Source: a candidate division WOR-3 bacterium (lineage in GTDB: Bacteria; Hydrothermota; Tepidihabitantia; Tepidihabitantales; DTDR01). Taken from it: a stretch of DNA of 64,000 nucleotides. The notes under the pieces are model-generated. The model worked only from the letters and a program-made list of their open reading frames with translations, made no database searches and was not told the origin of the DNA. Below are positions 18,086 through 55,787 of the stretch, piece after piece (within the stretch, counting starts at the first letter, position 1; each line of letters starts with the position of its first letter). The stretch lies in contig JBDRVE010000002.1 of assembly GCA_039801725.1 (NCBI GenBank), forward strand, positions 336-64,335, read 5' to 3'. Made by a program: the position numbers and the translations under genes.

Positions 18086-18271
18086 ACAATTAAATATAAT
18101 ACATTTTTTTTAGAAAATTTCAATAATACTGCCATCAAGAATTTAATTATTAAAATAAAACAACTACCTTCTAATACCTTATTAAATAAATTTTTAATAA
18201 AAATACCTCTTTTGTTTATAAGTGATGAAAAATCAATAATTTATTAATAAAAAATTTAAATAAAAAATCGC

Positions 18272-18297
18272 TTGACATTTCGTTTAGTTTTATTATA
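18272..18297 (+). promoter_or_regulatory. sigma70 consensus-like promoter (TTGACA-16-TATATT) of the division/cell-wall cluster
   Basis: TTGACA at 18272-18277 and TATATT at 18294-18299 region. The predicted transcription start falls 2-3 nt before the ATG at 18307, implying a leaderless mraZ mRNA. Confidence 0.55.
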
Positions 18298-18306
18298 TTT
18301 TTGGTA

Positions 18307-19786: not shown

Positions 19787-20072
19787 TTTAATTATTTTCT
19801 TTATTTTTCTCTCAGGATTTTTTCAATTAATTTTAGTCTATAGAAATTTTCGATTGATGAATGAAATCGCCAACTTGGAAGAGAAGAAAAAACTTCTAAT
19901 TATTAGGATTAAAAAAGAGAATGTTTATCTTGATAGTTTATCTATCTTTTCCTCTTTTCTTCAAGAAAAGAGTTTAGAAATGAAATTTGCTGAGCTTTTT
20001 AGAAAAGATTCTAACTTTCCGGATATAATAGAGATAACAGAGATTGCTAAAAAAGAAAATGGCGAAGAATGA
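19773..20072 (+). CDS. ftsL: cell division protein FtsL (small bitopic)
   Basis: 99 aa with an N-terminal TM helix then a coiled-coil. Sits between rsmH and ftsI. Confidence 0.6.
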   Translation: MKRINLIIFFIFLSGFFQLILVYRNFRLMNEIANLEEKKKLLIIRIKKENVYLDSLSIFSSFLQEKSLEMKFAELFRKDSNFPDIIEITEIAKKENGEE

Positions 20073-29085: not shown

Positions 29086-29942
29086 AAGGAATTGAAGTTA
29101 AAAAGAATTTTTCTTTAAATAAAATTTCCTCTATTGGTATTGGTGGTAAAATTAGATATTTAGTTAAAATAAAAGATAAAAATTCTTTACCCCTTCTGAA
29201 AGAGGTTATCCAGAAGGAAAAAATTAAATATGTTTTTATTGGAAAACTTACTAATCTTCTTTTTCCTGATGGTTATCTAGACGGAGTGGCAATACAATAT
29301 CAAGATGATTTTTTTGAAGAGTTGGGAAAAGATCCGCCTCTTTTTAAAGTGGGAGCAGGTATGGGTTTAGCAAGTTTAATTTTGAAACTTCGGAATCTTT
29401 CGGTCTCGGGTTTAGAACCACTAATTGGTATTCCAGGAACTGTTGGAGGAGCTATTAAAATGAATGCCGGAGCTTTTGGATTTTCCATCTCAGATTTTGT
29501 AAAAGAGATAGAAGTTTTCTCCTTTAAAGAAGGCTTTAAAATCTTAAAAAAGGAAAAAATTAATTTTGATTATCGCTTTTCTTCGATTGGCGATGATGAG
29601 TTAATAATTAGTGCCACATTCGAGTTAAAGAAAGATAATTATAATAATTTGATTGAAAAATACTTAAGAATAAGAAATGAAAAATTTCCTAAAGGAAAAT
29701 CCTTAGGTTGTATTTTTAAAAATCCGGTAGGTCTTATTGCTGGTGAATTAATTGAGAAAGCCGGATTAAAAAATTTTCGAATCGGTGATGCGATTATTTC
29801 TGATAAACATGCTAACTTTATTATTAATATAAAAAGAGCGAAATTTTTGGATGTCTATGAGATGATTCAAATTGTTAAAGAAAAGGTGCAAAAGAAGTTT
29901 AATGTTTTATTAGAAGAGGAAATAAAAATAATGGATATTTAG
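29061..29942 (+). CDS. murB: UDP-N-acetylenolpyruvoylglucosamine reductase MurB
   Basis: FAD-binding PCMH fold; GSTFKNP-like CIFKNP motif. Confidence 0.75.
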   Translation: MREIFEGLKGIEVKKNFSLNKISSIGIGGKIRYLVKIKDKNSLPLLKEVIQKEKIKYVFIGKLTNLLFPDGYLDGVAIQYQDDFFEELGKDPPLFKVGAGMGLASLILKLRNLSVSGLEPLIGIPGTVGGAIKMNAGAFGFSISDFVKEIEVFSFKEGFKILKKEKINFDYRFSSIGDDELIISATFELKKDNYNNLIEKYLRIRNEKFPKGKSLGCIFKNPVGLIAGELIEKAGLKNFRIGDAIISDKHANFIINIKRAKFLDVYEMIQIVKEKVQKKFNVLLEEEIKIMDI

Positions 29943-29943
29943 T

Positions 29944-31191
29944 ATGAAAAAAGAAATAATTACTACCATAGATTTGGGAATTACTACCATAAAATGTCTA
30001 ATTAGTGAAACTGATTTACAAGAACGAATTCACATTTTAGGATTTGGTGAAGCAGAAGCAAAGGGATTTAGCAGAGGAGTGGTAATTGATAGTGATAAAG
30101 CCTGCGAATCTCTTAGATCAGCCATTACCGAAGCCGAGCAGAAAGCCAAAATTAAAGTAAAAAAAACAAAAATAGTGGCTGGTCTACAAGGAGAATATAT
30201 AAAGGAATTAAGGGGTGAAAGTGGAAAGGATGATTTTACTCGGACTGTGCAAAAAGTTCAAGAAGAAGATATTATAGAAATAAAAAGAAAGATCCAAAAA
30301 ATTCATCTGCCCCAAGAGTTAGTTATATGGCAGTTAATTCCCTTAGAATACACCATTGATGGAGTAGAAGGAATAACTCAACCTTTAAAAATGTCGGTTT
30401 TTAATAAATTAACTTTAAAAGCATTGTTATTGACTATTCCTCGCAGCAGTCTAAAAACGATTATTGAAATTTTTTATGAATTGGAATTAAAAAAATTCGA
30501 ATTTGTCTTTCAAAACGCTGTAATTGGTTTAGGAGTATGTGAGGAAGACGAGTTAACCAAGGGAGTAGCGATTTTAGATATTGGCGGCGGAGTAAATTTT
30601 GGGATTTATAAAAATGGAGAATATCAAATTGGTTTTAATCTGCCAATTGGTGGAGTATCTATTACTAATGATATTGCTGTGGTGTTTTTGACTCCTTTTC
30701 CTTATGCTGAAAAAATTAAAAAAGAATACGGTATGGCTTCTCGGGAGAATGTAATAGAGGATCTGCCAATAGAAATAATTAATCATTCAGGTAAAACTAA
30801 AAGACGAATAACCCAAAGTCAATTATCGGAGGTTATTGAATATCGGCTACGAGAAATTTTATATTTAACAAAACAAGAATACGAAAAAATAAAAAATGGA
30901 AAAATTCTACCCTTAAGTATTGTGGTTACTGGTGGTGTAGCAAATACTCCCGGAATTGAGAGGTTAGTGGAAGAAATATTCTCTTTGCCTACGAGAGTTG
31001 GCTTTGCGCCTTCTGTGAGAGATAAGATTTTTCCCAGTGATTTTATTAATCCAAGATTTGCCACTTTAATTGGTTTAGTGGAATATAAATTAAAAAAGAA
31101 GAACTATTTACCAATTAAAGAAATGGATATTTTTGATAAAATAAAAAACTGGATAAAAAAGAGATTTACTTCCATTTTAGGAGAAGAATAA
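29944..31191 (+). CDS. ftsA: cell division protein FtsA
   Basis: Actin-like ATPase (DLGITTIKC, DIGGGV). Confidence 0.8.
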   Translation: MKKEIITTIDLGITTIKCLISETDLQERIHILGFGEAEAKGFSRGVVIDSDKACESLRSAITEAEQKAKIKVKKTKIVAGLQGEYIKELRGESGKDDFTRTVQKVQEEDIIEIKRKIQKIHLPQELVIWQLIPLEYTIDGVEGITQPLKMSVFNKLTLKALLLTIPRSSLKTIIEIFYELELKKFEFVFQNAVIGLGVCEEDELTKGVAILDIGGGVNFGIYKNGEYQIGFNLPIGGVSITNDIAVVFLTPFPYAEKIKKEYGMASRENVIEDLPIEIINHSGKTKRRITQSQLSEVIEYRLREILYLTKQEYEKIKNGKILPLSIVVTGGVANTPGIERLVEEIFSLPTRVGFAPSVRDKIFPSDFINPRFATLIGLVEYKLKKKNYLPIKEMDIFDKIKNWIKKRFTSILGEE

Positions 31192-31204
31192 AAAGGAGGG
31201 AGAT

Positions 31205-32311
31205 ATGATTTATCCTTGTGAGAGAATCCAAAAATTAAAAATGAAAATTTTTGGAATTGGCGGTGGGGGCGGCAATATTTTGAATACTTTAATAAAATAC
31301 CATCGCCAATTAAATTTTCAACTAGTGAATACTTGTTTAGAATATTTTGCATTCAATACTGATTTGATCGCATTGAAAAATTCTTTGGCAATAAATAAAG
31401 TTCAATTAGGGAAAAATTTGACCAGAGGATTTGGTTCTGGCGGCAAACCAGAGGTAGGCGAACAGGCAGCAATAGAAAGCGAAGAAGAGATTCGACAAAA
31501 GATTAGAAATACTGATTTATTAATATTGATTTCTTGTTTGGGTAAAGGTACTGGCAGCGGAGTCACGCCAAAAATTGCTGAATGGGCACGCGAAGAAAAT
31601 GTTTTAACATTAGTAATAACTGTTAAACCTTTTAATTATGAAGGTCACGCAATTAATATGATTGCTCGAAATTCTTTAGAAAAAATTGAGAATTTCTCTT
31701 CTTCCGTAATTGTGGTTTCTAATACTCAGGTAAAGAAGAAATTAGGCAATATCCAGGTAGAAGAGGCTTTTCAAAGGATAAATGAGATATTGGCCATGGG
31801 ACTTACTGATTTAATAAAAATTATTGATAATTCTCACTTAATAGGAATAGATTTTGCTGATATAAAAAACATAATTGAAGAAAAGGGTAGGGGTGCACTC
31901 GTTGTTGGTGAAGAAAAAGATCCTCAGAAAGTTTGTGAGGCCATATTTGATTCGCCCTTATTTGATAACAAAATTGAATATGCCAAAAATCTTTTGGTTT
32001 GGGTTTGCGGTGACGAATCAGTGACCTTAGAAACGGTTAGTGAGATTTGTGAAAAGATTTCTAAGAAAGTAAATAATAATACAAAAATTAGGTTTACCTT
32101 TTTAAAGGATAAAAGCATAGATAAAATACGGGCAGGATTTTTTGCCTCCGGACTTTTTAAAGAAGCGATTGATGAATGGGAAAAGGATCTGATTATAGAA
32201 AAATTACAAGAAGAAAAAATCGAGGAAGAGTTAAATTTAGTTATGCCCATTGAAAAAAAGGTAGATAAAAATAATTTAACCTTACCAACAATATTTAGAA
32301 TGTTGTTGTGA
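31205..32311 (+). CDS. ftsZ: cell division protein FtsZ (divergent signature GKGTGSG)
   Basis: GIGGGGGN; T4 loop GKGTGSG instead of GGGTGTG; T7 NLIGIDFADI. AAGGAGG RBS 6 nt upstream. C-terminal peptide LTLPTIFRML. Confidence 0.8.
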   Translation: MIYPCERIQKLKMKIFGIGGGGGNILNTLIKYHRQLNFQLVNTCLEYFAFNTDLIALKNSLAINKVQLGKNLTRGFGSGGKPEVGEQAAIESEEEIRQKIRNTDLLILISCLGKGTGSGVTPKIAEWAREENVLTLVITVKPFNYEGHAINMIARNSLEKIENFSSSVIVVSNTQVKKKLGNIQVEEAFQRINEILAMGLTDLIKIIDNSHLIGIDFADIKNIIEEKGRGALVVGEEKDPQKVCEAIFDSPLFDNKIEYAKNLLVWVCGDESVTLETVSEICEKISKKVNNNTKIRFTFLKDKSIDKIRAGFFASGLFKEAIDEWEKDLIIEKLQEEKIEEELNLVMPIEKKVDKNNLTLPTIFRMLL

Positions 32312-35117: not shown

Positions 35118-38099
35118 TTAAAAATAAAGTCGCGAAGAGAAATTAATTTTAACCTCTTGCTCTTTAAATCCTTCTTTTAGATAGTTAAATTCCCAGGTAA
35201 AAGAGAGATTTTGGTTGAGATTTTTGCTAAGTAAAATGGAAAAATTATAAGAAAATCCTTTGGGTTCATAATAAGCTAATTCTAAGGGCAAAATTTCTTT
35301 GGGGTAAATTCGATAGATTATTTCTAAAAAGGTAGTTAAATAGAGATTTTTTAAGATTTCGTTATTTTTTTCTAAAGTGAGACTGGTTTTTTTAATTAAA
35401 TAATCTTTTCTAAATGGTAGAAAATATTGATAATAAATAAAGAAGATACCTGGTTTTAAGTTTAAATTATAATTTTCTTTTAATTCCCATAAATTAGAAA
35501 ATCCATAAGTTTTTCCTTTTTGATAATAAAATTCGCCTTTTCTCTTTTCCTCCTTTTCAAATTGGAGAACCTGTGTAAGACTTAATGATTTTGATAGTTC
35601 TTTTTTAAGAGTAAGGAGATTTTGTACCCCTTTATTTTTGGGATTTTCGTATATTAGATCTTTATTTTCTTTTTGATAATAATTTATTTTGTAATTTATC
35701 AGAAAATTTTCTTTGATATAATAATCGGTCAGGAATTGGCAATCTAAATTTTTAGGATAAGTAAAATTGGAAGAAAAACTTATTTTTAACTTTTTTATTG
35801 GCAACCAACAAAAACTGTGATTAAATTCGGCTTTGGAAATTCTTTTCCCTTTTCTTAAAGGAATAATTTCTTTTAAATATTCACCAAGAGAATCAGGATA
35901 ATATTCATTAGTTATCGTATCTTTTGAATAATTACCTTCCCCTTTTTTCACTTTAACAAATCTTATCTCTTTAATAACTTCTTCTTCGTTAGTAAATTTT
36001 TTAGAAAAACTAAATTGGAAAACATTTTTAAAAGAATAATTAAAATCAAAATCAGAAAAAAAGGAGTTTTCAAAAAAACCAATGATAAAAGAGGCTTTGG
36101 GATTATTTTGATTGGTGATACCCAATTTAGTAATTTTCTTTTTATTTAAATGATTTTTTTCTGTTTCCCTTTCATAAGTTAAAAAAAATTTACTTTCCTT
36201 AAAATAAAAATTGATACCCCAGCAATGGGTTAAAAAATAATTATTAGTATCCTTTCGGTAAGTAAAAGAATAGGTTGGATTAAAAGAATGGTAGGTTGGT
36301 GATGTGACAAAAGAAAAGATATTTCTATTGTAATAATCCTTCTTTAAAGAAATTTCATTGAAAAAGAAGTTAAATTTACTAACTCCAAAATAATCCCAGT
36401 TTTTTTCCTTTTTTATCAATTCTAATTTATTAAGAAAACTTAAACTTTTAACAGGCGAAAAATTTATTTGAAAAGATGTTCTATTTTTCAAAGGGAAATT
36501 AAAGAATTCTTCATTTTTTAATTGAGAAAGAATTTGGTAATTTTTAAATAGGTGAAGATTTTTAAAAGATAAAAAGATTTTTTCGCTTTGATAGGAAAAA
36601 GCAAAATTTGTTCCGTAACCATAACAATTTGTATCACCATAGGGTGAAAAAATATTTTCATCTTTTTTATTTACCATTCCACCAACTTGAATATTTAAAT
36701 TTTCATTAATCGGTATTTCCAAATTAATTGAAGTAAAAAGATTTTCTTTTGGTAAATCTATTTTAGAGTAGGGAAGATATTTTCCCTTGTTTTTACCAAC
36801 ATAATAATAACAATTTTTTATATTATCATAATCATAATCTCCTAAACTTTCACCAACAAAGGTAAAATTTACCAGATAACTACCATTATTTTCGCCGACA
36901 TAGAAAAATATCTCACCCTCTTTTTCATAATCACCCTTATTTTTGCCAACATAGCGAAAAGAATTTATGTAAGCCTTTGCTGTATCGTTGCCAATTTTGG
37001 TAAGATAGTTTTTTATTTCCTTATCAAAAAATTCTCTTTTATTCTTATCCTTTTCCCAATAATAACTTATATTAGTTTTTATTGGCAGGCGAGTAGTCAA
37101 AAGAGTTAAACAATAGTTATCTTTTTCGTAAATTTCTTCTTCGTATAAAAAATCTATTTCAATAAGATTGCGGGAGGTAATGATCCAACGATTAGTAAAA
37201 CTTATAAAACCAAATTCGTAATCAATTAAATAATCTTCATTATTACCCCTTTTTAACAGTTTGCCATCTAAATATACCCTCTCACTATTTGGTAAGATTT
37301 TTATCGATTTATCCTTTTTTAGATAGTAAGGTCCTTGGATAAAATCTTTACCATAAAATTGTATCTTTTCATATTTAAAAGGAGTTGTTAAATAATGAAA
37401 ATAAAGGGTTTCATAAAGATTTGTTTGAAAAAAAGATGCTCCTATACCTTGAGAAGAAAGTCTTCCAAAATGGGAAAAATCTATTTCTTTACCTTGATTT
37501 CCCCAAGTTAAAGAAAGGCTTTTTGTTTTCATTTTCAAATAAGAATTGTCCATCTCTTTTACTGATAAACCCTCTTCTTTATTTTCTTTGCCATTAAAGA
37601 AGCCTTCAAAATTTATTTCATCCACATTACCATTTAAGGAGAAATTTGTTTGCTGATTAAGATTTATCCCTTCTTTATTGTGATAATTTAATTTGATCTC
37701 TTTTTCTCCTTCTAAAATAATATCATTAAAACTGGTATTAAAAGAAGTATCAGTTATTAAAGGAGAGATAGCAGAAAGGGAATCAGATTCTATTTTCTTT
37801 ATAATAGGAGGTGATAGAAAGGGGATTGAAAAAGGCAAATAAAAATAGATAATTTTAAGGGTACAGGGAAGTAAAGATGGCAACTTTTTTATCTCAATGA
37901 CCCCTTTTTCATAATTAATAAAATAACCATCTTTTTTAACAAATTCTTTTTGAAAATAAAGGGTTTCTGAATTTTTTATAATTGGATAATTCTTTAGATA
38001 AATTGTTAAATAATTATTATTTATATTATTTATTATAAAAGTCTCTTCCCTTTTCAAATTGAAGAAGAGATAAAAACAGAAGAAAAAAAGGTTCATCAA
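35118..38099 (-). CDS. large (993 aa) N/K/Y-rich secreted protein, putative outer-membrane beta-barrel, with internal YVGKNKGxY-type repeats
   Basis: Hydrophobic N-terminus. C-terminal ...RLYF (terminal Phe, typical of an OMP beta-signal). Repeats YVGKNKGDY / YVGENNGSY / FVGESLGDY / YVGKNKGKY. No family assignable. Confidence 0.45.
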   Translation of the reverse strand: MMNLFFFCFYLFFNLKREETFIINNINNNYLTIYLKNYPIIKNSETLYFQKEFVKKDGYFINYEKGVIEIKKLPSLLPCTLKIIYFYLPFSIPFLSPPIIKKIESDSLSAISPLITDTSFNTSFNDIILEGEKEIKLNYHNKEGINLNQQTNFSLNGNVDEINFEGFFNGKENKEEGLSVKEMDNSYLKMKTKSLSLTWGNQGKEIDFSHFGRLSSQGIGASFFQTNLYETLYFHYLTTPFKYEKIQFYGKDFIQGPYYLKKDKSIKILPNSERVYLDGKLLKRGNNEDYLIDYEFGFISFTNRWIITSRNLIEIDFLYEEEIYEKDNYCLTLLTTRLPIKTNISYYWEKDKNKREFFDKEIKNYLTKIGNDTAKAYINSFRYVGKNKGDYEKEGEIFFYVGENNGSYLVNFTFVGESLGDYDYDNIKNCYYYVGKNKGKYLPYSKIDLPKENLFTSINLEIPINENLNIQVGGMVNKKDENIFSPYGDTNCYGYGTNFAFSYQSEKIFLSFKNLHLFKNYQILSQLKNEEFFNFPLKNRTSFQINFSPVKSLSFLNKLELIKKEKNWDYFGVSKFNFFFNEISLKKDYYNRNIFSFVTSPTYHSFNPTYSFTYRKDTNNYFLTHCWGINFYFKESKFFLTYERETEKNHLNKKKITKLGITNQNNPKASFIIGFFENSFFSDFDFNYSFKNVFQFSFSKKFTNEEEVIKEIRFVKVKKGEGNYSKDTITNEYYPDSLGEYLKEIIPLRKGKRISKAEFNHSFCWLPIKKLKISFSSNFTYPKNLDCQFLTDYYIKENFLINYKINYYQKENKDLIYENPKNKGVQNLLTLKKELSKSLSLTQVLQFEKEEKRKGEFYYQKGKTYGFSNLWELKENYNLNLKPGIFFIYYQYFLPFRKDYLIKKTSLTLEKNNEILKNLYLTTFLEIIYRIYPKEILPLELAYYEPKGFSYNFSILLSKNLNQNLSFTWEFNYLKEGFKEQEVKINFSSRLYF

Positions 38100-38160
38100 A
38101 TAAAATTTTAATTTTATATAACTTTAAAGTCAATTAATTAAATATATTCTACTATTTCCC

Positions 38161-49327: not shown

Positions 49328-50311
49328 TTAAGATATTTTTAATTTGATTGCCTTTTTGGGGCATTGGTAATAGCATTCTAAACATCTAATACAGTCGGTT
49401 TGGTTAGCATTTTCATAGACATTTATATCGGTGGGGCAGACTTTTATACAGATATTACATTTACCACATTTTTCTTTATCAACTTCTAAATGGAAGAGGC
49501 TTATCTTATTAAAGAGAGAATAAATCGCACCAATAGGACATATTACTTTGCAAAATATTCTTTTTATAAAGATTGCCAGGATAAAGATAATTATTAATAT
49601 CAAAATCTTTAGATAGAAAAATAACCCAACCATTGTTTTTAAACTATTCTCTGGGTCGTATAATACTAAAGGGATTCCTGCTTCTAATGTTCCTTGGGGA
49701 CAAAGTTTACAAAACCAAGGTTCATTGGTAAAAAAGACAATAAAGGTTGCCAAAAATATGAGAAAGATATATTTGAGAAAAGTCAAATCAATTTCTTTTA
49801 TACGGATTTTTAAGATTATATCTAAGAGAAGACCGATAATTGTTGAAGTTAAAATTATAACAATTTTAATGATTAAAGAAAGATAGTTAAATTTAAGCCA
49901 GATTAAAAAATAAGAAGAGAGAAATAGTATAATGGTAAATAAAGGGGTAATTTTAGGAAGAGAGATTTTTTTCTTACTTATTTTAAAAAGTAGGTCTTGG
50001 AAAAGACCAAAAGGACATAGCCAACCACAAGCCATTCTGCCAACAAAGGCACCAATAATAAAGAACAAACCCAAGGTATAAAAAGGAAAATCTTTAATTA
50101 TTATAGAATGTTGATAGGCACCCAATGGACAAGAAAACCAAGTGGTTGGAGTTGACCAGCAGTTTAATATCGGCACCAAAAAACTTTTTAAATATCCGGT
50201 ATAAATTAATGTCTTTTCAAAAAATACTAAAATATAACTGTTGATTAATATTGTAAAAATTATTTGGGAGATTCTAAAAGGTCTCATCCTAAACCCATAC
50301 AAGAAAGGCAA
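49328..50311 (-). CDS. membrane polyferredoxin (NapH/MauN/CcoG-like 4Fe-4S protein)
   Basis: TM helices, CGWLCPFGLFQD, C-terminal CGKCNICIKVCP and CIRCLECYYQCP. Confidence 0.65.
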   Translation of the reverse strand: MPFLYGFRMRPFRISQIIFTILINSYILVFFEKTLIYTGYLKSFLVPILNCWSTPTTWFSCPLGAYQHSIIIKDFPFYTLGLFFIIGAFVGRMACGWLCPFGLFQDLLFKISKKKISLPKITPLFTIILFLSSYFLIWLKFNYLSLIIKIVIILTSTIIGLLLDIILKIRIKEIDLTFLKYIFLIFLATFIVFFTNEPWFCKLCPQGTLEAGIPLVLYDPENSLKTMVGLFFYLKILILIIIFILAIFIKRIFCKVICPIGAIYSLFNKISLFHLEVDKEKCGKCNICIKVCPTDINVYENANQTDCIRCLECYYQCPKKAIKLKIS

Positions 50312-50417
50312 AGTAAAATACCGGTGTTAAATACTTCTTTAATCTGTTCTAATCTTACTGCCATAATTAAAAAGATAATTCCAATAATTAAAGGAATTAG
50401 AAAGAGATATCTTCTCA

Positions 50418-51878
50418 TTATATTCTCACTTGTAAGGAAGTTTTTATTCCGCTGAAAGGTGCCTCATAACGACAGACACCACCAGAGCAAACAAGTCCGC
50501 CCCTTTCTTGGCCAATTCTTATCCGCCAAGTTATGTTTTGGGTAATAAAGAAGGTTCCTTCTAATAATAGCCATTTGTCTTCATAGTCATATTTGGGAAC
50601 CTTTTTTGTTGTTCTTTGGTAACTAATATTAAATATGAAATAGGGATTATATTCATATTCTAAATTTATTCCCCAATCCTTGTATTTTAAAGTATCATCA
50701 GAAGAAAAATTCAAAGGTATTTCTAAACCAAAGGTATGATTATTGAAAGATAATTTAGCCTCATTAGTAAATTTTAATTCTTCGGTTATATCTACTTTTG
50801 CTTCAATTCCTTTTTTCTTATGGTATTCAAAGGTGAAGGTATTATTAAAATCTTCATTCTTTTTTAGATTAATTTTATTAATAAATTCTTTTAGATATTT
50901 ATCTTTTTTATTAGTTTGTAAATAGCCATAACTACCCTCATAATTTAGAAAATCAAAAGGTGTGAAATTTAGTGAGATGCCAAATCCTTTTTCGTCTCTT
51001 CCACGGTTGATTGATATTCCTTCTTTACTTGGTGTGGGCACATCGTTATAACGATATCCTTCACCACCAAAATCAATACTATCATATTTCATTCCTTCTA
51101 AACTGAGCCCAAAACCAGTAAAAGTGAAAGAGGTTACTAAATAATGGCCATATCCTTTTTTTCTACCACCAATTACTTCACGGGTAGAAAGTTTTTCAGC
51201 AAATTCATAATAAAAGTCAAAAAAATTAGAAGTAAAAGAGATACTTGGACCAAATATTTCAGTAAAGGCACGAGGAGTTATATCCTTTTCTTTATTTAAC
51301 CGTACATATCTTCCACCAATTTCTAAAAAAGAGAAAGGATAGATTATAATTTCTCCACCTCTTAATTGGTCAGTGGTGTCATTTTCATATTGGTATCTAT
51401 TCTCTTGGAAGATGATATTCTTCATTTTTCCGGCAAAGAGGGTGATATCAGATTTTAAAATATGAGATATTGCCCGACCACCGAATAGCACCTTATCATA
51501 ACGAAAATCCTCATTAAGATAAGAACGGAAAGTAAGACTACGACCAAAGACTTGGTAAAAATTTCCAAGCAAAAATTCAATCTTCGGATGGGAATATTCA
51601 AAATTGTAATAATATTCTTTTAAACTCTTTTTAGGTAAACTTGGTTGATAAAGGAAAATACCTGCTCGTAAGTAAATATTTTCATAGTTAATTAAAAACC
51701 GCGACTTGCCCTCAAAATGGTCAGAGAGTTTGAATTCAGGTTCTTTTTTTGTCCAAAACCAATATTCGCCTTTAATTTCACCGGAAATGTTTAACTTCTT
51801 TTCAACCGGCATTTCTTCCTGGGAATAGAGATAAAAGAAAAGAAAGAAAAATAAGAAAAATTTACTTTTTCTCTTCAT
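50418..51878 (-). CDS. hypothetical secreted / outer-membrane protein (486 aa)
   Basis: Signal peptide. Alternating aromatic/polar pattern suggests a beta-barrel. Confidence 0.4.
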   Translation of the reverse strand: MKRKSKFFLFFFLFFYLYSQEEMPVEKKLNISGEIKGEYWFWTKKEPEFKLSDHFEGKSRFLINYENIYLRAGIFLYQPSLPKKSLKEYYYNFEYSHPKIEFLLGNFYQVFGRSLTFRSYLNEDFRYDKVLFGGRAISHILKSDITLFAGKMKNIIFQENRYQYENDTTDQLRGGEIIIYPFSFLEIGGRYVRLNKEKDITPRAFTEIFGPSISFTSNFFDFYYEFAEKLSTREVIGGRKKGYGHYLVTSFTFTGFGLSLEGMKYDSIDFGGEGYRYNDVPTPSKEGISINRGRDEKGFGISLNFTPFDFLNYEGSYGYLQTNKKDKYLKEFINKINLKKNEDFNNTFTFEYHKKKGIEAKVDITEELKFTNEAKLSFNNHTFGLEIPLNFSSDDTLKYKDWGINLEYEYNPYFIFNISYQRTTKKVPKYDYEDKWLLLEGTFFITQNITWRIRIGQERGGLVCSGGVCRYEAPFSGIKTSLQVRI

Positions 51879-52383
51879 TTATTATTTCTTCGATAACTCT
51901 TATAAATTTCTTTTCATCGCCCTTTTTATAACCCCGAGAAACTAACCGAATATTTCCCTTTTTATCAAGAATAAAACTTGTTGGCATCGTTGAACCGACA
52001 CCAAAAAGTTCTCTCACTTTTCCATCAGGGTCTAATAAGATTTCGTATTTCCATTTCTTTCCTTTCACAAAGGACTTTACATTATTTATTGCCCTTGGTC
52101 CATCTTCAGAAATAGCCAATACTTTAAGTCCTAATGTTTCATATTGGTCATAAATCTTTTTAAAGGCATCCAGTTCTTGAATACAAAGTTTACACCACAG
52201 TGCCCAGAAACTAATAAAAATTGGTCCTTTCCCCAAAAGAGAGTCAAGATAGATTTTTTCTTTATTGATGTTATAAAGAGAAAAACTTGGCGCTTTCTTA
52301 TAAGATTTTAAGGTATCAGTTTTTTCTTGGGGATATATGAGGAAAAATAAAATTAAGATAAAAATTAAATTCCTTAATTTCAT
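51862..52383 (-). CDS. periplasmic TlpA/ResA-like thiol-disulfide oxidoreductase
   Basis: Signal peptide. FISFWALWCKLC (WCxxC). Thioredoxin fold. Confidence 0.75.
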   Translation of the reverse strand: MKLRNLIFILILFFLIYPQEKTDTLKSYKKAPSFSLYNINKEKIYLDSLLGKGPIFISFWALWCKLCIQELDAFKKIYDQYETLGLKVLAISEDGPRAINNVKSFVKGKKWKYEILLDPDGKVRELFGVGSTMPTSFILDKKGNIRLVSRGYKKGDEKKFIRVIEEIINEEKK

Positions 52384-53108
52384 CTTTCACCTCCCAATTT
52401 TAGACTTTTACTTTGAATGATTTCTAAGTTATTAACATTTTGGATAAGGGCAACCACATTTAGATTTCTTTGATTTAAAGAAATATTAAAAGTAGTATCA
52501 AAGGTATCAAAAATTGTGGCATTAAAATTGATACCTTCTAAAGGAAAAAGATTTTCTCTTAAAACCCAATTGTTTTCAAAAAAAGGAGCTATTTCCGAAA
52601 ATAAACTATCTTCGGTAAGAAAGACAAATAACCGATATTCTTGGGGAGTTGGATTTTCGCTATTAGAAATAATTTTAAGATTTATGGTGCTATTATTTAA
52701 TGGATTTAAAAGAATTTGATAATAAGTACTTTCTGAAAGGGCATTTAAAATATAGTAATTATAGACTGAGTCAATATTTGTTATTTCTTCTAAGAAGACT
52801 TTATATCTTCCATTAAAAACGGCGGTTGGTATTCGGTTTATTTGGTATAAATCATAACGGTTTTCACATATTTCGTTTTGGAATTCGTCGCCTAAATGAT
52901 ACGCAATTATTGATAAACTATCTTGATATTCTTCTTTTAAATTTAATAAAGACTGCTCCGCAGCCATACAGAAAGGTCAACCTGCTTGAGTAAAGATTTC
53001 AACCAAAACTTTCTTATTTCCTTTTTTAAATTCAATTTTTGGTGCTTCGGAACAAGAAATTAAAAAAACAAAGTTTAACGTACTGAGTAAGAAAAATAGT
53101 CTATTCAT
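52380..53108 (-). CDS. thioredoxin-fold lipoprotein with in-frame UGA at the active site (candidate selenoprotein, UxxC)
   Basis: ATG 53108. Lipobox FLISC. VLVEIFTQAG-TGA(52979..52977)-PFC, then the same frame continues into the 195-aa ORF; RIPTAVFNG cis-Pro-like motif about 50 aa later. TGA is otherwise a stop in this genome. Confidence 0.5.
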
Positions 53109-53140
53109 AAAAGTTATTATAATTAAGAATAATTTTTAAA

Positions 53141-54304
53141 TCAAGAAGTTTTATATAAAGGTGAAATTTCTCTCAGTTTTTTTACGATGGATGGAAATAC
53201 TTCTAAAAGATAGTTAATATCTTCTTCTTTATTATCAATTCCCAAGGTGAAAAGAATGGAACCTTGGGCTAAAATGGGTGGTATGCCCATTGCCAAAAGA
53301 ACATGAGATGCTTTTAACTGTTTAGAAGAACAAGCCGAACCAGAGGCACAAGCAATGCCATATTGGTTTAAATATAAAACCATTGCCTCACCTTCTATAT
53401 ATTCTACACAGAAACTAACGTGGTTAGGTAAACGATTCTCCGGATGTCCAGTTAAGTAAACATTTTCAACCATTCTTGGCAATTCTTGTATCAACTTATT
53501 TCTTAATCTTTTTAACCTTTCGTTTCTTTCTTCCATTTCTTTTATGGCAATTTCGTAGGCCTTTGCCATACCAATAATACCAATTAAATTCTCTGTTCCT
53601 GCTCGTCGATTATTTTCTTGAATACCGCCTTCAATCAATGGTTGGATTTTTGTCCCCTTTTTGATATATAATAAAGCAACACCTTTTGGACCATAAAAGG
53701 TATGGGAAGAAATAGTATAAAGGTTAACGTCTAATTCCTTTAAATCAATTTTTAATTGACCAGCCGCTGCCACACCGTCAGAGTGGAAAATAATATTATT
53801 CTCTTTGGCTATTTCAGCAATTTCTTTTATTGGTTCAATTGTGCCTACCTCATAATTGGCATGCATTATTGAAATCAAAATTGTTTCCTTTTTTATCTTC
53901 TTTTTTAACTCATCTAAATCAACAGTGCCGTATTTATCAACGGGCAGATAAGTTATTTCAAATCCCATTTTCTCTAACCTTTTTGCTGGTTGAATTATTG
54001 AGGAATGTTCAATTGCTGAAACGATAATATGGTTGCCTTTATCTTGATTGGCAAAGGCGACTCCCTTTATTGCCCAGTTATTACTTTCGGCACCGGAAGA
54101 GGTAAAGCAGATTTCCGAAGGTGAAACATTTAAAAGAGAGGCAATTTTTTCTCTTGCTTCTTCTAATAATTTTTTTGCTTCAAAACCAAAATAATGGGAA
54201 CTTTGCGGATTACCAAATACCTCCTTTTGTAGATTTTCCATTAAGGACAAAACTTCCGGATGGATAGGAGTGGTTGCTTGGTGGTCCAGATAGACTCTTT
54301 TCAT
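53141..54304 (-). CDS. cysteine desulfurase (NifS/IscS family; possible Sec lyase)
   Basis: VYLDHQATTP N-terminus, PLP Lys region SSHTFYGPKG, active-site Cys in SGSAC. Confidence 0.8.
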   Translation of the reverse strand: MKRVYLDHQATTPIHPEVLSLMENLQKEVFGNPQSSHYFGFEAKKLLEEAREKIASLLNVSPSEICFTSSGAESNNWAIKGVAFANQDKGNHIIVSAIEHSSIIQPAKRLEKMGFEITYLPVDKYGTVDLDELKKKIKKETILISIMHANYEVGTIEPIKEIAEIAKENNIIFHSDGVAAAGQLKIDLKELDVNLYTISSHTFYGPKGVALLYIKKGTKIQPLIEGGIQENNRRAGTENLIGIIGMAKAYEIAIKEMEERNERLKRLRNKLIQELPRMVENVYLTGHPENRLPNHVSFCVEYIEGEAMVLYLNQYGIACASGSACSSKQLKASHVLLAMGIPPILAQGSILFTLGIDNKEEDINYLLEVFPSIVKKLREISPLYKTS

Positions 54305-54792
54305 GGTCCTAAATGTTCTAAGGAAAATTTTTTATATGCTTCATAAGAAGTGAAACTGGTTAATAAATCATATTCGGTCTTTATAATTTGATAATGAGAC
54401 TTTTCCATAGAAGCAAGATAAATCAACAATCTTTTGCTATTTTCATCATTAATCAATATTGAATTTTCCCGATAGAATTTCTCTGAAACCTCTTCCGCTT
54501 CCATCGCTGCTTCTAAAAGAGATTCTAACGATAATTTTTCAACCATATCAATTGCTGGTAAGGGGGTAAAGCCTTTTTCGGGCAATCTGATTTTTTGTTT
54601 AGGAAATTGATTTTTAAATACGTTTCTTAATAGTTTTTCATGTTTTTTCTCTTCATTTTTTAGAAAGTTTAATTTCTTTTCTAAGACTTTATTTTCTACT
54701 ATTTTTTGTAATTTATTATAAAATTGATAAGCCTCAATTTCTGATTTTATCGCCTTTTGTAATATTTCTAAGGGAGTTAAGGCTTCTTCCAT
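54301..54792 (-). CDS. ferritin-like / rubrerythrin-like diiron-domain protein (paralog 3 of 3)
   Basis: Two half-domains with E...ExxH-type motifs (EIEAYQFY, EEKKHEKL; EAEEVSEKFY, MEKSHYQI). Confidence 0.55.
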   Translation of the reverse strand: MEEALTPLEILQKAIKSEIEAYQFYNKLQKIVENKVLEKKLNFLKNEEKKHEKLLRNVFKNQFPKQKIRLPEKGFTPLPAIDMVEKLSLESLLEAAMEAEEVSEKFYRENSILINDENSKRLLIYLASMEKSHYQIIKTEYDLLTSFTSYEAYKKFSLEHLGP

Positions 54793-54810
54793 ATCTCCTC
54801 CTTTTTATTT

Positions 54811-55311
54811 TTAATATTCTTCCAAGGTAAATTCCCGAAAATCAAACCAAAAACCGGTTTTTGTTAAAGAATCGATTTCGGCTTGAATTAATTTATAATG
54901 ACCCTCTTCAATCTCTTTTAATCTTTGCCAGATTTTTTTAGCAATCTCGTCACTGCTCTCTTTTTCTTGTTTTTGATAGAAATCAATACTTTTGCTTTCT
55001 AATGATAAAGCCATTTGTAAGATATTTAATTCATTCAAATCCGATACCTTTTTCTCTTTGGGTAATAAGGGTTTTAAATTGATAACCGTTTTTTCAATCT
55101 CCGTTAAAGGAATTTCTACATCCTTAAATTTTTTTTCTTTTTCAAAATATTCTAATTCTCTTTCTAAGATCTCAATATGTTCAAATTCATCCATTGCTAA
55201 ACGGATAAAAAGGTTTTTCCCTTTTAGGTCTTCAATCTGGTGTCCAAAACGAAGATAGGAAGAGAGTGCTTCTTTTTCCAAATTGATTGCTAATTGAAAG
55301 ATTTCTTTCAT
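54811..55311 (-). CDS. ferritin-like / rubrerythrin-like diiron-domain protein (paralog 2 of 3)
   Basis: LEKEALSSY, DEFEHIEIL; ESKSIDFY, EEGHYKLI. Confidence 0.55.
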   Translation of the reverse strand: MKEIFQLAINLEKEALSSYLRFGHQIEDLKGKNLFIRLAMDEFEHIEILERELEYFEKEKKFKDVEIPLTEIEKTVINLKPLLPKEKKVSDLNELNILQMALSLESKSIDFYQKQEKESSDEIAKKIWQRLKEIEEGHYKLIQAEIDSLTKTGFWFDFREFTLEEY

Positions 55312-55787
55312 TTAATTTCTCCTTTTATAGTTTCTAATTTTTTAATATGTGCCTTTTCTTCATTAATTAACTTTAACACCACAGGTGTTTCTTCTTGGGC
55401 AACTAAATTTAATATTTCATAATAAAAGAGCAATGTCTCCTTTTCAAAAGCAATTGCCAAGTCAATCAGCTCTTTTTCGTTTTTGGCTCTTTCCATTAAA
55501 TTTAAAACTTTATCTTCACCAGTAAAGAAATGGGAGTCGGTGATTACTTTTAAATACAGTTTTACTTCTTCCCAATCAAAAGGTAAGGTATAAGGTGTTG
55601 TTTTTAATCGATTTTTAATTTCATTAAAAGCTTCCATATGTCTCAACTCTTCGCCTGCTAAGAAATCAAAGAGTTGTTTCAATTTCTCTGCTTTGGTCTT
55701 TTCTTTTGATTTTGAATAAAACTGATAACCACTTTTTTCAATCTGGATTGCCATTTCTAAAACCTCGTTTATTGAATAAAAGACCAT
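55308..55787 (-). CDS. ferritin-like / rubrerythrin-like diiron-domain protein (paralog 1 of 3)
   Basis: IEKSGYQFY, GEELRHMEAF; EKETLLFY, EEKAHIKKL. Confidence 0.55.
   Translation of the reverse strand: MVFYSINEVLEMAIQIEKSGYQFYSKSKEKTKAEKLKQLFDFLAGEELRHMEAFNEIKNRLKTTPYTLPFDWEEVKLYLKVITDSHFFTGEDKVLNLMERAKNEKELIDLAIAFEKETLLFYYEILNLVAQEETPVVLKLINEEKAHIKKLETIKGEIK

What the first reader, a model, noticed from the sequence alone, without database searches (positions are those of the whole stretch)
49328..55787. Co-directional 8-gene redox module: 3x ferritin-like + NifS + Sec-Trx lipoprotein + TlpA + OMP + polyferredoxin
Eight minus-strand genes with overlapping or abutting boundaries look like one operon. 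They are, in order of transcription: three tandem paralogous ~160-aa diiron ferritin/rubrerythrin-like proteins, a cysteine desulfurase, the UGA-containing thioredoxin-fold lipoprotein, a secreted TlpA-like CxxC thioredoxin, a hypothetical outer-membrane protein, and a NapH/CcoG-like membrane polyferredoxin. The combination spans cytoplasm (diiron proteins, desulfurase), inner membrane (polyferredoxin), periplasm (two Trx-fold proteins) and outer membrane. It does not correspond to a named pathway such as Ccm/Res cytochrome maturation (no CcdA/ResBC) or Nap (no NapA). It could be an envelope-spanning reductive pathway, for example oxidative-stress or metal(loid)/chalcogen (S/Se) handling.
Basis: inference. 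Interest (0 to 1): 0.65.

Follow-up and report, generated by a model that had tools for sequence, protein, structure and literature searches.

The report
Conserved selenoprotein envelope redox gene module

Summary
The genes are there as described. They come from a candidate division WOR-3 genome that uses the standard code.

The "eight-gene operon" is really two independent blocks.

**Block A** is three diverged diiron ferritin-like paralogs plus NifS. It lies next to the downstream genes only in the closest relatives, 2 of 82 loci. In one related lineage a ~10 kb type III-A CRISPR-Cas island sits exactly at the NifS|TlpA junction.

**Block B** is a real conserved module of five genes:
- an Omp28-like thioredoxin-fold lipoprotein
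- a TlpA-like protein
- a DUF6029 barrel
- a NapH-like polyferredoxin

All five are present in 47 of 61 loci that have enough flanking sequence.

The lipoprotein's in-frame UGA is conserved in all 53 orthologs found directly upstream of TlpA. It aligns with the first Cys of CxxC in Cys-type homologs. A covarying SECIS-like hairpin follows it. In 29 loci the small peptide is also UGA-encoded (ULSCMGLV), with its own hairpin spanning the stop codon. tRNA-Sec and part of SelB lie near the module in other WOR-3 loci.

Most likely function, by inference only: a thiol/selenol relay from cytoplasmic Fe-S centres to the periplasm and outer membrane. I found no paper describing it. NCBIfam holds models for related families.

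The parts
55308..55787 (-). Ferritin-like/rubrerythrin-family protein 1 (159 aa). Belongs to block A, not to the conserved module.
   Evidence: PF02915 40.5 bits. Two ExxH motifs, at residues 47 and 144. Next to the module only in L001 and L006.
54811..55311 (-). Ferritin-like/rubrerythrin-family protein 2 (166 aa). Block A.
   Evidence: PF02915 33.9 bits. ExxH at residues 42 and 135. About 30% identical to its paralogs.
54301..54792 (-). Ferritin-like/rubrerythrin-family protein 3 (163 aa). Block A.
   Evidence: PF02915 60.5 bits. PDB 2fzf at E 7e-26. ExxH at residues 48 and 130.
53141..54304 (-). NifS/IscS-type cysteine desulfurase (387 aa). Block A.
   Evidence: PF00266 265 bits. TIGR03402 507 bits against a cutoff of 531. 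NF002806 309 bits against a cutoff of 304.
53116..53144 (-). Sigma-70-like promoter match (TTGATT-17-TATAAT) just upstream of the lipoprotein start. A possible separate promoter for the module.
   Evidence: 10 of 12 match, but the region as a whole has no excess of such matches. The element is kept in L001 and L006, even though L006 has lost the lipoprotein gene.
52380..53108 (-). Omp28-like thioredoxin-fold lipoprotein, 242 aa. Lipobox LISC|SEAP; redox motif FTQAG-U-PFC.
   Evidence: - Translation.
- NCBIfam NF045500 (Omp28-related selenoprotein) 51.9 bits and NF033782 48 bits, both below cutoff.
- A profile of the lipoprotein family hits PDB 2r2c (Omp28) and 5y1a (HBP35).
- AF2 pLDDT 89; top Foldseek hit 2r2c.
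- Directly upstream of TlpA in 53 of 66 loci.
52977..52979 (-). In-frame UGA read as selenocysteine; first position of the UxxC motif.
   Evidence: - TGA is an ordinary stop in 23 of 59 long ORFs of the window.
- The same in-frame TGA is present in all 53 orthologs found upstream of TlpA.
- Cys occupies this position in homologs P0127, P0132, P0136 and others, and in L075, L078 and L081.
52949..52967 (-). SECIS-like hairpin: an 8-bp stem with a GGA loop, starting 12 nt after the UGA.
   Evidence: - Across 54 distinct sequences, 93.8% of cells are paired, against 24-55% in slid controls.
- 6 of 8 pairs show compensatory changes; no shuffle of 500 matched.
- The covariance model hits only this site in the window, at 45.6 bits.
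51862..52383 (-). Secreted TlpA/ResA-like thiol-disulfide oxidoreductase (173 aa, WCKLC).
   Evidence: PF00578 87.5 bits. Signal peptide and CxxC conserved in 60 loci. Directly upstream of DUF6029 in 69 of 72 loci.
50418..51878 (-). DUF6029 outer-membrane beta-barrel (486 aa) with an invariant C-terminal CSGGVC pair.
   Evidence: PF19494 85.5 bits. C464 and C469 are invariant in 31 homologs. Used as the anchor for the 82 loci.
50284..50418 (-). 44-aa single-pass membrane peptive... with C-terminal CLSCMGLG. Its orthologs are UGA-encoded (ULSCMGLV) in 29 loci.
   Evidence: - ORF.
- Conserved in 66 of 75 loci: 37 Cys-type and 29 Sec-type.
- The Sec-type genes have a hairpin across the stop codon: 97% paired, with pair 18-28 as CG 10 / GC 10 / UA 9.
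- Weak hit to NF040920, the CD1871A CXXC family.
49328..50287 (-). NapH-like membrane polyferredoxin (319 aa). It has two CxxxCP motifs, two 4Fe-4S motifs, and four further conserved Cys in the loops predicted to be periplasmic.
   Evidence: - PF12801 77.7 bits; TIGR02163 62 bits, below its cutoff of 213.
- All 16 Cys are conserved in 62-64 of 64 homologs.
- Within 1 kb downstream of DUF6029 in 64 of 72 loci.
- The AF2 model is poor (pLDDT 52).

Best explanation
The interval holds two unrelated neighbouring blocks.

**Block A (55787-53141)** is three diiron ferritin-like paralogs plus a NifS cysteine desulfurase. These are ordinary cytoplasmic iron / oxidative-stress and Fe-S housekeeping genes.

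**Block B (53108-49328)** is a five-gene module conserved across WOR-3 and neighbouring candidate phyla:
- an outer-membrane-type lipoprotein with a thioredoxin fold, a selenocysteine-cysteine (UxxC) active site and an Omp28-type beta-sandwich
- a secreted TlpA-like CxxC oxidoreductase
- a DUF6029 outer-membrane barrel with an invariant CxxxxC pair
- a 44-residue membrane peptide whose C-terminal CxxC is predicted to face the periplasm, and which is UxxC in other lineages
- a NapH-like polyferredoxin

**Proposed mechanism (inferred, not shown).** Electrons enter from reduced ferredoxin or NAD(P)H at the two cytoplasmic 4Fe-4S clusters of the polyferredoxin. They reach its conserved periplasmic-loop cysteine pairs and the small peptide. 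From there they pass by thiol/selenol-disulfide exchange to TlpA, then to the selenocysteine lipoprotein, which works at or with the DUF6029 barrel. The polyferredoxin plus peptide would do the job that CcdA/DsbD does for TlpA-type proteins elsewhere.

**Shown:**
- the gene content
- co-conservation of the five genes
- the conserved UGA codons with their hairpins
- conservation of every cysteine

**Inferred:** the membrane topology, the direction of electron flow, the order of partners and the final substrate.
For: **Module conservation over 82 non-redundant loci**
- TlpA upstream of DUF6029: 69 of 72.
- Lipoprotein upstream of TlpA: 53 of 66.
- Small peptide: 66 of 75.
- Polyferredoxin: 64 of 72.
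- All five together: 47 of 61.

**Selenocysteine**
- The UGA is conserved, while TGA is a normal stop in the window.
- Cys occupies the same position in homologs.
- Both hairpins covary, and both place the apical loop at nucleotide 21 counted from the U of UGA.
- tRNA-SeC occurs in L045 and L048, and a SelB C-terminus in L045.

**Redox chemistry in every component**
- UxxC in the lipoprotein, WCxxC in TlpA and CSGGVC in DUF6029.
- CxxC or UxxC in the peptide.
- 16 conserved Cys in the polyferredoxin.

**Cytoplasmic donor hint.** A GltD-like NAD(P)H Fe-S flavoprotein directly follows the polyferredoxin in 16 loci.

**The peptide-polyferredoxin pair is a unit of its own.** In Cloacimonadota locus L074 it occurs together, apart from TlpA-DUF6029.

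**No CcdA/DsbD among the window ORFs of 150 aa or more that I scanned** (L001 annotation).

**Block A is separable**.
Against: - There is no experimental or structural evidence for electron flow.
- The polyferredoxin topology rests on hydropathy, the positive-inside rule and analogy to NapH. Its AF2 model was unusable (pLDDT 52).
- The lipoprotein is missing upstream of TlpA in 13 of 66 loci. It is a deletion remnant in the close relative L006, so it is not indispensable.
- Whether WOR-3 genomes lack CcdA/DsbD elsewhere was not tested.
- Sec machinery was not verified in the window's own genome.
- The recurrent LipA-like radical SAM neighbour, in 25 loci, is unexplained.
- The role of the barrel is unknown.
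Confidence: 0.5

Rival explanations
1. Thiophilic metal or metalloid handling. The polyferredoxin acts like CcoG, an Fe-S metal reductase. The thioredoxin-fold Sec lipoprotein acts like a Sco-type metallochaperone that TlpA keeps reduced. The DUF6029 barrel is the outer-membrane passage for the metal or chalcogen species (Cu, or S/Se/Te).
For: - CcoG belongs to the same Fer4_5 class. It has two 4Fe-4S clusters and two Cu sites and reduces Cu(II) (review PMC7558416).
- TlpA reduces the Sco and CoxB copper sites in rhizobia (established knowledge, not tested here).
- The closest solved relative of the N-terminal domain is the haemin-binding surface protein HBP35 (PMC2907840).
- A conserved YH motif follows the active site in the lipoprotein family.
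Against: - TIGR02745 CcoG scores 27 bits against a cutoff of 317.
- There is no P-type ATPase, CopZ or Sco-type CxxxC...H signature in the module.
- The motif is a classic thioredoxin CxxC/UxxC at the alpha-1 N-terminus.
- No metal-resistance genes recur among the neighbours.
Confidence: 0.2
2. An oxidative-folding pathway running the other way. The lipoprotein or TlpA introduces disulfides (or selenylsulfides) into envelope proteins such as DUF6029. The peptide plus polyferredoxin re-oxidises them like DsbB/VKOR, passing the electrons to quinone or Fe-S centres.
For: - NapH-type proteins are thought to exchange electrons with the quinone pool (established knowledge).
- DUF6029 has an invariant Cys pair that could be a client.
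- No DsbB or VKOR was seen in the window.
Against: - TlpA/ResA-type proteins are reductants in every characterised case.
- Selenocysteine in the CxxC position is typical of reductases.
- A GltD-like NAD(P)H enzyme follows the polyferredoxin in 16 loci, which points to a cytoplasmic donor.
- Electrons moving from thiols to low-potential Fe-S clusters would run uphill.
Confidence: 0.1
3. One reading: all eight genes form one operon for a single envelope-spanning oxidative-stress or chalcogen pathway. In it, the ferritin-like proteins and NifS supply or protect the cytoplasmic end.
For: - Gene spacing is tight, from a 17-nt overlap to a 32-nt gap, across the whole set.
- The arrangement is kept in L001 and, without the lipoprotein, in L006.
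- NifS-type enzymes can also act on selenocysteine (established knowledge).
Against: - Rbr and NifS are next to the module in only 2 of 82 loci.
- A type III-A CRISPR-Cas island lies between NifS and TlpA in the L087/L007 lineage.
- The same tight spacing links ffh, rpe, fmt and def upstream.
- A promoter-like element sits between NifS and the lipoprotein gene.
Confidence: 0.05
4. The TGA is a genuine stop or a lesion. On this view the lipoprotein gene is split or a pseudogene, and only the 195-aa downstream ORF (as annotated in public records) or nothing at all is made.
For: Public gene calls give only the 195-aa ORF (P0001-P0006). No Sec machinery was seen in the 64-kb window.
Against: - The signal peptide, lipobox and first strand upstream of the TGA are conserved in frame across 53 diverged orthologs.
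- The TGA always falls on the first Cys position of CxxC.
- The SECIS-like hairpin covaries.
- tRNA-SeC and SelB are present in related loci.
- The 195-aa product would lack its export signal and its active site.
Confidence: 0.03

Closest known systems
CcdA/DsbD - TlpA/ResA/CcmG periplasmic reducing pathways
   Same: A secreted TlpA-fold CxxC protein sits in an envelope pathway, together with a membrane component that has conserved cysteines on both faces. Thiol-disulfide exchange is the likely chemistry.
   Different: - No CcdA/DsbD gene is in the module or in the window ORFs of 150 aa or more that I scanned.
- The membrane partner is an Fe-S polyferredoxin plus a 44-aa CxxC/UxxC peptide.
- There are no cytochrome-maturation genes (ResBC/Ccm).
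- An outer-membrane lipoprotein and a barrel belong to the unit.
NCBIfam NF045500 'Omp28-related selenoprotein' / NF033782 Omp28 family lipoprotein / P. gingivalis Omp28 (PDB 2r2c) and HBP35 (PDB 5y1a)
   Same: The lipoprotein combines an N-terminal thioredoxin-like CxxC/UxxC domain with an Omp28-type beta-sandwich. A selenocysteine form of this architecture is already curated by NCBI.
   Different: - The window protein scores far below both cutoffs: 52 against 200, and 48 against 150.
- It is shorter than the NF045500 model: 242 aa against 377 positions.
- It belongs to a distinct subfamily that is fixed upstream of TlpA.
- The ~350-aa UxxC paralogs in the same loci look closer to NF045500, but I did not score them.
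NapH / MauN / NosR / CcoG (Fer4_5 membrane polyferredoxins)
   Same: A membrane domain with two CxxxCP motifs followed by two cytoplasmic CxxCxxCxxxCP 4Fe-4S motifs.
   Different: - Below the NapH and CcoG cutoffs (62 against 213; 27 against 317).
- Four extra invariant Cys lie in the two loops predicted to be periplasmic.
- It is always paired with a small CxxC peptide.
- No NapG/NapA, NosZ or ccoNOQP context.
NCBIfam NF040920 'CD1871A family CXXC motif-containing protein'
   Same: A ~40-aa protein with one hydrophobic helix and a C-terminal CxxC.
   Different: Hits are below the cutoff of 32 bits: 15 bits for the window peptide and 25 for a Sec-type member. I found no record of selenocysteine members or of a link to TlpA, DUF6029 or Omp28-like genes.
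Erythrin / rubrerythrin-family ferritin-like proteins and the NifS-type Fe-S assembly desulfurase (block A)
   Same: A four-helix diiron fold with E...ExxH twice. A class V PLP desulfurase.
   Different: There is no rubredoxin domain, so these are not true rubrerythrins. No NifU lies next to NifS. Block A is not linked to the module.

Membership tests
Bacterial selenoprotein (SelB/SECIS-dependent UGA decoding) | An in-frame UGA conserved among orthologs, in a genome where UGA is otherwise a stop | tested here: met
   TGA ends 23 of 59 long ORFs in the window. An in-frame TGA sits at the same codon in all 53 orthologs found upstream of TlpA.
Bacterial selenoprotein (SelB/SECIS-dependent UGA decoding) | Cysteine-containing homologs with Cys at the UGA position | tested here: met
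   P0127, P0132, P0136, P0141, P0144 and P0153 carry CxxC there. CxxC is also present in L075, L078 and L081.
Bacterial selenoprotein (SelB/SECIS-dependent UGA decoding) | A stem-loop immediately 3' of the UGA, with G in the apical loop at the canonical distance, supported by covariation | tested here: met
   - The hairpin occupies nt 13-31 counted from the U of UGA.
- 93.8% of cells are paired, and 6 of 8 pairs show compensatory changes.
- The loop is mostly GGA.
- The canonical distance and loop rule are recalled from the bSECISearch consensus and were not re-checked here.
Bacterial selenoprotein (SelB/SECIS-dependent UGA decoding) | selA, selB, selC and selD present in the same genome | not testable with these tools
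   None was found in the 64-kb window. tRNA-SeC occurs in L045 and L048, and a SelB C-terminus in L045, all from other WOR-3 genomes.
NF045500 Omp28-related selenoprotein | HMM score at or above the curated cutoff of 200 bits | tested here: not met
   51.9 bits, covering residues 30-237.
Omp28 family (PF11551 / NF033782) | HMM score at or above the cutoff (34.9 / 150 bits) | tested here: not met
   29.3 and 48 bits.
Omp28 family (PF11551 / NF033782) | The Omp28-type beta-sandwich fold | tested here: met
   The AF2 model has pLDDT 89. The top Foldseek PDB hit is 2r2c, at E 6.5e-6 and TM (target) 0.59-0.63. The profile search also hits 2r2c, at E 1.7e-6.
TlpA/ResA-type thiol-disulfide oxidoreductase | A thioredoxin-fold AhpC-TSA/Redoxin domain with a CxxC motif and an export signal | tested here: met
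   PF00578 87.5 bits and PF08534 57.4 bits. WCKLC and a cleavable-type signal peptide are conserved in 60 loci.
TlpA/ResA-type thiol-disulfide oxidoreductase | Equivalog-level score to ResA (NF002854, 170 bits) or TlpA (NF047696, 230 bits) | tested here: not met
   90 and 25 bits.
CcdA/DsbD-dependent reducing pathway | A CcdA/DsbD membrane electron transporter encoded with, or near, the TlpA-like gene | tested here: not met
   None of the window ORFs of 150 aa or more that I scanned with Pfam is one. For 57-62.9 kb I rely on the annotation of relative L001. No such family recurs among the neighbours in 82 loci. The rest of the genome was not examined.
NapH/MauN (TIGR02163) and CcoG (TIGR02745) | HMM score at or above the cutoff (213 / 317 bits) | tested here: not met
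   62.4 and 27.4 bits.
Fer4_5 membrane polyferredoxin (PF12801) | Fer4_5 repeats with CxxxCP, plus C-terminal 4Fe-4S motifs | tested here: met
   77.7 bits in three stretches. Both CxxxCP motifs and both CxxCxxCxxxCP motifs are invariant in 63-64 of 64 homologs.
DUF6029 (PF19494) | HMM score at or above the cutoff of 27 bits | tested here: met
   85.5 bits.
CD1871A family CXXC protein (NF040920) | HMM score at or above the cutoff of 32 bits | tested here: not met
   15.4 bits for the window peptide and 25.1 bits for a Sec-type member with U replaced by C.
Rubrerythrin | A diiron four-helix domain plus a C-terminal rubredoxin domain | tested here: not met
   The PF02915 domain is present in all three, each with two ExxH motifs. 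There is no rubredoxin domain and there are no CxxC pairs. They are ferritin-like/erythrin-type proteins only.
Single operon / functional unit of the eight genes | Co-conservation of the gene set in other genomes | tested here: not met
   Rbr and NifS occur with the module in 2 of 82 loci. A CRISPR-Cas island sits at the junction in the L087/L007 lineage.

The most novel reading that the evidence does not exclude
WOR-3 and allied candidate phyla use a previously undescribed envelope-spanning selenol/thiol relay. An Fe-S polyferredoxin plus a ~45-residue (seleno)cysteine micropeptide replaces CcdA/DsbD as the transmembrane source of reducing power. The chain ends in a selenocysteine lipoprotein paired with a dedicated outer-membrane barrel, so that reducing equivalents are delivered to the outer membrane or the cell surface. 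The micropeptide would be among the smallest selenoproteins, with a SECIS that runs across its own stop codon.
Probability: 0.3. Interest if true: 0.8.

Novelty: new variant of a known kind. Interest (0 to 1): 0.66.

Why it matters
How anaerobes without a recognisable DsbD/CcdA supply reducing power to the periplasm and outer membrane is poorly understood. This module offers a concrete, testable candidate that is present across a whole uncultured phylum.

It also shows that public annotation systematically truncates or misses two selenoprotein families. The lipoprotein is called as a 195-aa fragment that lacks its signal peptide and its active site. In the two annotated loci I inspected that carry the Cys-type peptide gene (L003, L004) it is called but unnamed. 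The Sec-type peptide gene would be cut at its UGA, but I did not check how it is annotated.

The two covarying SECIS elements could be used to find more selenoproteins in these genomes.

For the scan itself, the lesson is that in compact genomes like this one, tight co-directional spacing does not define an operon. Synteny across relatives does.

Tried and rejected
- **Alternative genetic code (UGA = Trp or Gly).** Rejected: TGA ends 23 of 59 long ORFs in the window.
- **The 52951-52965 hairpin as an intrinsic terminator.** The scan flagged it, but it lies inside the conserved reading frame and covaries as a SECIS.
- **AF2 model of the polyferredoxin.** pLDDT was 52, too poor to assign topology or to run a fold search, so I dropped it.
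- **Word-indexed homolog search with the lipoprotein.** It found only relatives of 93% identity or more. The exhaustive HMMER search and a custom HMM run on ORFs read through TGA were needed to find the family.
- **First tblastn with the lipoprotein.** I used a mis-framed query. This was corrected.
- **Rfam at gathering threshold.** It found only the tRNA-Arg.
- **Other in-frame TGA candidates in the window.** All of them are antisense or out-of-frame noise.
- **Sec machinery or CcdA/DsbD elsewhere in the window.** I found none; the rest of the window is housekeeping.
- **Literature searches.**
  - Omp28 + selenoprotein, CD1871A, and 'candidate division WOR-3' + selenoprotein each returned no paper.
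  - WOR-3 + selenocysteine, and selenoprotein + polyferredoxin, returned only papers that did not look relevant from title and abstract.
  - The one DUF6029 paper I read mentions it only as a Wzi-like barrel.

Full report
**Source and code.** The closest database proteins are annotated as candidate division WOR-3 bacterium MAGs. The window is 31% G+C. TGA ends 23 of its 59 long ORFs, so it uses the standard bacterial code.

**What is in the interval.**
- Pfam and NCBIfam confirm three PF02915 ferritin/rubrerythrin-family proteins.
  - Each has two ExxH motifs and none has a rubredoxin domain.
  - They are only about 30% identical to one another.
  - Rbr3 matches PDB 2fzf at E 7e-26.
- The other confirmed genes are:
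  - a NifS/IscS-type desulfurase
  - a TlpA/ResA-like secreted CxxC protein
  - a DUF6029 outer-membrane protein
  - an Fer4_5 (NapH-like) polyferredoxin
- The lipoprotein runs from ATG 53108 to 52380.
  - It has the lipobox LISC|SEAP and an in-frame TGA at 52977-52979, in the motif FTQAG-U-PFC.
- A ninth gene was missed: a 44-codon ORF at 50284-50418, MRRYLFLIPLIIGIIFLIMAVRLEQIKEVFNTGILLCLSCMGLG.
  - It overlaps the end of DUF6029 by 1 nt and the polyferredoxin by ATGA.
  - This sets the polyferredoxin start at ATG 50287.

**Is the arrangement more than background?** No, not on spacing alone.
- Junctions inside the set range from a 17-nt overlap to a 32-nt gap.
- But ffh lies only 11 nt upstream of the first ferritin-like gene.
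- The co-directional run from 40369 to 63998 also holds def, fmt, rpe, ffh, sucCD, a 2-oxoacid:ferredoxin oxidoreductase, a ZIP transporter, folK-like HPPK and panBC.
- The first real gap, 258 nt, comes after the polyferredoxin.

**Comparative genomics splits the set in two.** I aligned DUF6029 homologs and scanned one genome per species, which returned 80 loci. Most are WOR-3; a few are labelled TA06, Stahlbacteria, Latescibacterota, Cloacimonadota or Coatesbacteria. With loci from exact-protein look-ups this gives 82 non-redundant loci.
- A tblastn search with all the window genes shows TlpA-DUF6029-polyferredoxin in the same order almost everywhere.
- The ferritin-like genes, NifS and ffh appear only in the two closest relatives, L001 and L006.
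- L006 is colinear with the window over 21 kb, but its lipoprotein gene is reduced to a short deletion remnant.
- L007 keeps synteny from TlpA downstream, and only from there.
- A metagenome scan with Rbr3 found L086 and L087.
  - They keep def...ffh-Rbr1-3-NifS and then carry Cas6.
  - Their tail overlaps the head of L007 at 85% nt identity, and L007 encodes Csm1-6 up to TlpA.
- So in that lineage a ~10 kb type III-A CRISPR-Cas island sits exactly at the NifS|TlpA junction.
- A promoter-like TTGATT-17-TATAAT lies in that junction in the window and is kept in L001 and L006. This is suggestive only, because such matches are not enriched in the region.

**The conserved module.**
- An HMM of the lipoprotein family, run on ORFs read through TGA, finds the lipoprotein directly upstream of TlpA in 53 of 66 testable loci.
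- The small peptide follows DUF6029 in 66 of 75 loci, and the polyferredoxin in 64 of 72.
- TlpA precedes DUF6029 in 69 of 72 loci.
- All five genes are present in 47 of 61 loci with enough flank. Nine more lack only the lipoprotein.
- Other recurrent neighbours are weaker: a LipA-like radical SAM protein (25 loci) or a GltD-like NAD(P)H Fe-S flavoprotein (16 loci) right after the polyferredoxin, an MFS transporter (19) and enolase (16).
- In Cloacimonadota locus L074 the peptide-polyferredoxin pair occurs on the opposite strand, behind a tetrahaem cytochrome c gene. That pair is therefore a unit of its own.

**Selenocysteine in the lipoprotein.**
- Every one of the 53 orthologs upstream of TlpA has TGA at the same codon, the first position of a UxxC motif.
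- The signal peptide, a CS(E/D)AP lipobox region and the first strand are conserved in frame upstream of it.
- Full-length homologs from the exhaustive search carry CxxC there.
- Public gene calls start just after the motif, at 195 aa.
- Counting from the U of UGA, nt 13-20 pair with nt 24-31 around a loop that is mostly GGA.
  - Over 54 distinct sequences, 93.8% of cells pair, against 24-55% when the partner is slid.
  - Six of the eight pairs show compensatory changes.
  - No shuffle of 500 reaches the observed score.
- The window keeps GCG-GAG codons here despite its 31% G+C.
- A covariance model of this element hits only this site in the window.
- tRNA-SeC genes lie in WOR-3 loci L045 and L048, and L045 starts inside selB.
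- The window's own genome could not be checked for Sec genes.

**A second selenoprotein in the module.**
- The small peptide comes in two forms.
  - 37 loci, including the window, have the Cys form ...CLSCMG....
  - 29 loci have ...QI-U-LSCMGLV, with an in-frame TGA.
- In the Sec form, nt 15-20 pair with nt 26-31 around the loop CGUGU, and the 3' arm runs across the UAG stop into non-coding sequence.
  - 97% of cells pair.
  - Pair 18-28 is CG in 10 sequences, GC in 10 and UA in 9.
- Both SECIS-like elements put the apical loop at nt 21.
- The peptide has a basic N-terminus, one hydrophobic helix and an acidic tail. By the positive-inside rule this puts the CxxC/UxxC in the periplasm (inference).
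- Its only family hit is a sub-threshold match to NCBIfam NF040920, the CD1871A CXXC family. Pfam has nothing.

**The lipoprotein fold.**
- NCBIfam NF045500 (Omp28-related selenoprotein) and NF033782 (Omp28 family lipoprotein) match at 52 and 48 bits. Both are far below their cutoffs.
- A family profile hits P. gingivalis Omp28 (2r2c) with the C-terminal half, and the thioredoxin domain of the haemin-binding surface protein HBP35 (5y1a) with the N-terminal part.
- An AF2 model of the 195 residues after the active site is confident (pLDDT 89). It shows the rest of a thioredoxin fold plus a beta-sandwich whose best PDB match is 2r2c.
- The loci hold 31 further Omp28-like paralogs of about 350 aa, all UxxC. 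They may be the family that NF045500 models; I did not score them.

**The polyferredoxin.**
- All 16 Cys are conserved in 62-64 of 64 homologs:
  - two CxxxCP motifs
  - two CxxCxxCxxxCP motifs
  - C43/C53 and the CxxC at C193/C196
- Hydropathy gives six helices in the window protein and four in shorter homologs, with the same parity.
- With the N-terminus inside, as in NapH (recalled from the literature, not re-checked), the CxxxCP motifs and the Fe-S clusters are cytoplasmic and the four extra Cys are periplasmic. This is inference.
- The AF2 model was too poor to test it.
- DUF6029 has an invariant CSGGVC near its C-terminus. TlpA keeps its signal peptide and CxxC in 60 loci.

**Mechanism.** Every component carries a conserved redox-type Cys or Sec pair, and the set spans cytoplasm, inner membrane, periplasm and outer membrane.
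- No CcdA/DsbD turned up among the ORFs scanned in the window or among the recurrent neighbours.
- The best-supported reading is a reductive thiol/selenol relay, fed from cytoplasmic Fe-S centres through the polyferredoxin and peptide to TlpA, the Sec lipoprotein and the barrel.
- The rivals are:
  - a CcoG/Sco-like handling path for a thiophilic metal or chalcogen (CcoG is a cupric reductase of the same class; PMC7558416)
  - an oxidative-folding pathway running in the reverse direction
- None of these has direct evidence. The substrate is unknown.

**Novelty.** The components belong to known superfamilies, and NCBI curates related models. I found no paper describing the module, the WOR-3 selenoproteins or a Sec micropeptide. 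I rate it a new variant of a known kind: a TlpA-type envelope redox pathway with an unprecedented membrane donor and an outer-membrane end.

Noticed in passing
L016, L024, L028, L063 and 25 other loci (e.g. L028:11422-11559): The ~45-aa membrane peptide is UGA-encoded (…QI-U-LSCMGLV) in 29 high-GC WOR-3 loci. Its covarying hairpin spans the UAG stop codon. It looks like an unannotated micro-selenoprotein family.
   Followed up: yes
L029:4266-6537, L034:2368-4519, L045:4470-6679, L057:2354-4514 and others: There are 31 additional Omp28-like paralogs of ~350 aa, often in tandem pairs a few kb from the module. All carry an in-frame TGA in an EE(A/L)YSEG-U-xSC motif. WOR-3 genomes therefore encode several Omp28-like selenoproteins each.
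   Followed up: partly
L045:4245-4338 (-), L048:496-589 (-), L045:28-801 (+): tRNA-SeC genes lie 4-9 kb upstream of the module in two WOR-3 loci. In L045 the tRNA is directly beside a selenoprotein paralog, and the locus starts inside selB (SelB winged-helix domains).
   Followed up: partly
L087:8141-12489 and L007:1-6700: A type III-A CRISPR-Cas locus (Cas6, Cas10/Csm1, Csm2-5, Csm6) sits between NifS and TlpA in a relative, at the place where the window has the lipoprotein gene.
   Followed up: yes
L006:9320-9483: In a close relative (85-90% aa identity) the lipoprotein gene is reduced to a short remnant. It keeps the promoter-like element and the signal-peptide-like 5' end, but about 620 nt are deleted.
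   Followed up: yes
L074:14255-14767 (-): In a Cloacimonadota locus a 170-aa protein with four CxxCH haem motifs directly precedes the small CLSC peptide and the polyferredoxin, convergent to TlpA-DUF6029.
   Followed up: no
window 53049-53063 and the orthologs listed: The residues after the lipobox Cys are almost invariant, CS(E/D)AP, across very diverged orthologs. This could be a lipoprotein sorting or surface-export signal.
   Followed up: no
protein P0131 compared with L073:8370-9143: One database homolog reads FTQDG-W-SYC where the corresponding locus has TGA. Some pipeline apparently translated the selenocysteine codon as Trp.
   Followed up: no
loci such as L004:11515-12402 and L027:12456-14027: A LipA-like radical SAM protein (25 loci) or a GltD-like NAD(P)H Fe-S flavoprotein (16 loci) directly follows the polyferredoxin. 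The second could be its electron donor. The first is unexplained.
   Followed up: partly
window 35118-38123 (-): A 1001-aa ORF next to the tRNA-Arg has no Pfam match at E 1e-6.
   Followed up: no
L003:7846-8500: The ~650-nt stretch upstream of TlpA has no lipoprotein gene. Its translations look repetitive (recurring REL/KEL-like units), which suggests a tandem repeat.
   Followed up: no
window 18229-32311 (+): A complete dcw cell-division and cell-wall cluster: mraZ, mraW, ftsI, murE, mraY, murD, ftsW, murG, murC, murB, ftsA, ftsZ. Ordinary.
   Followed up: partly
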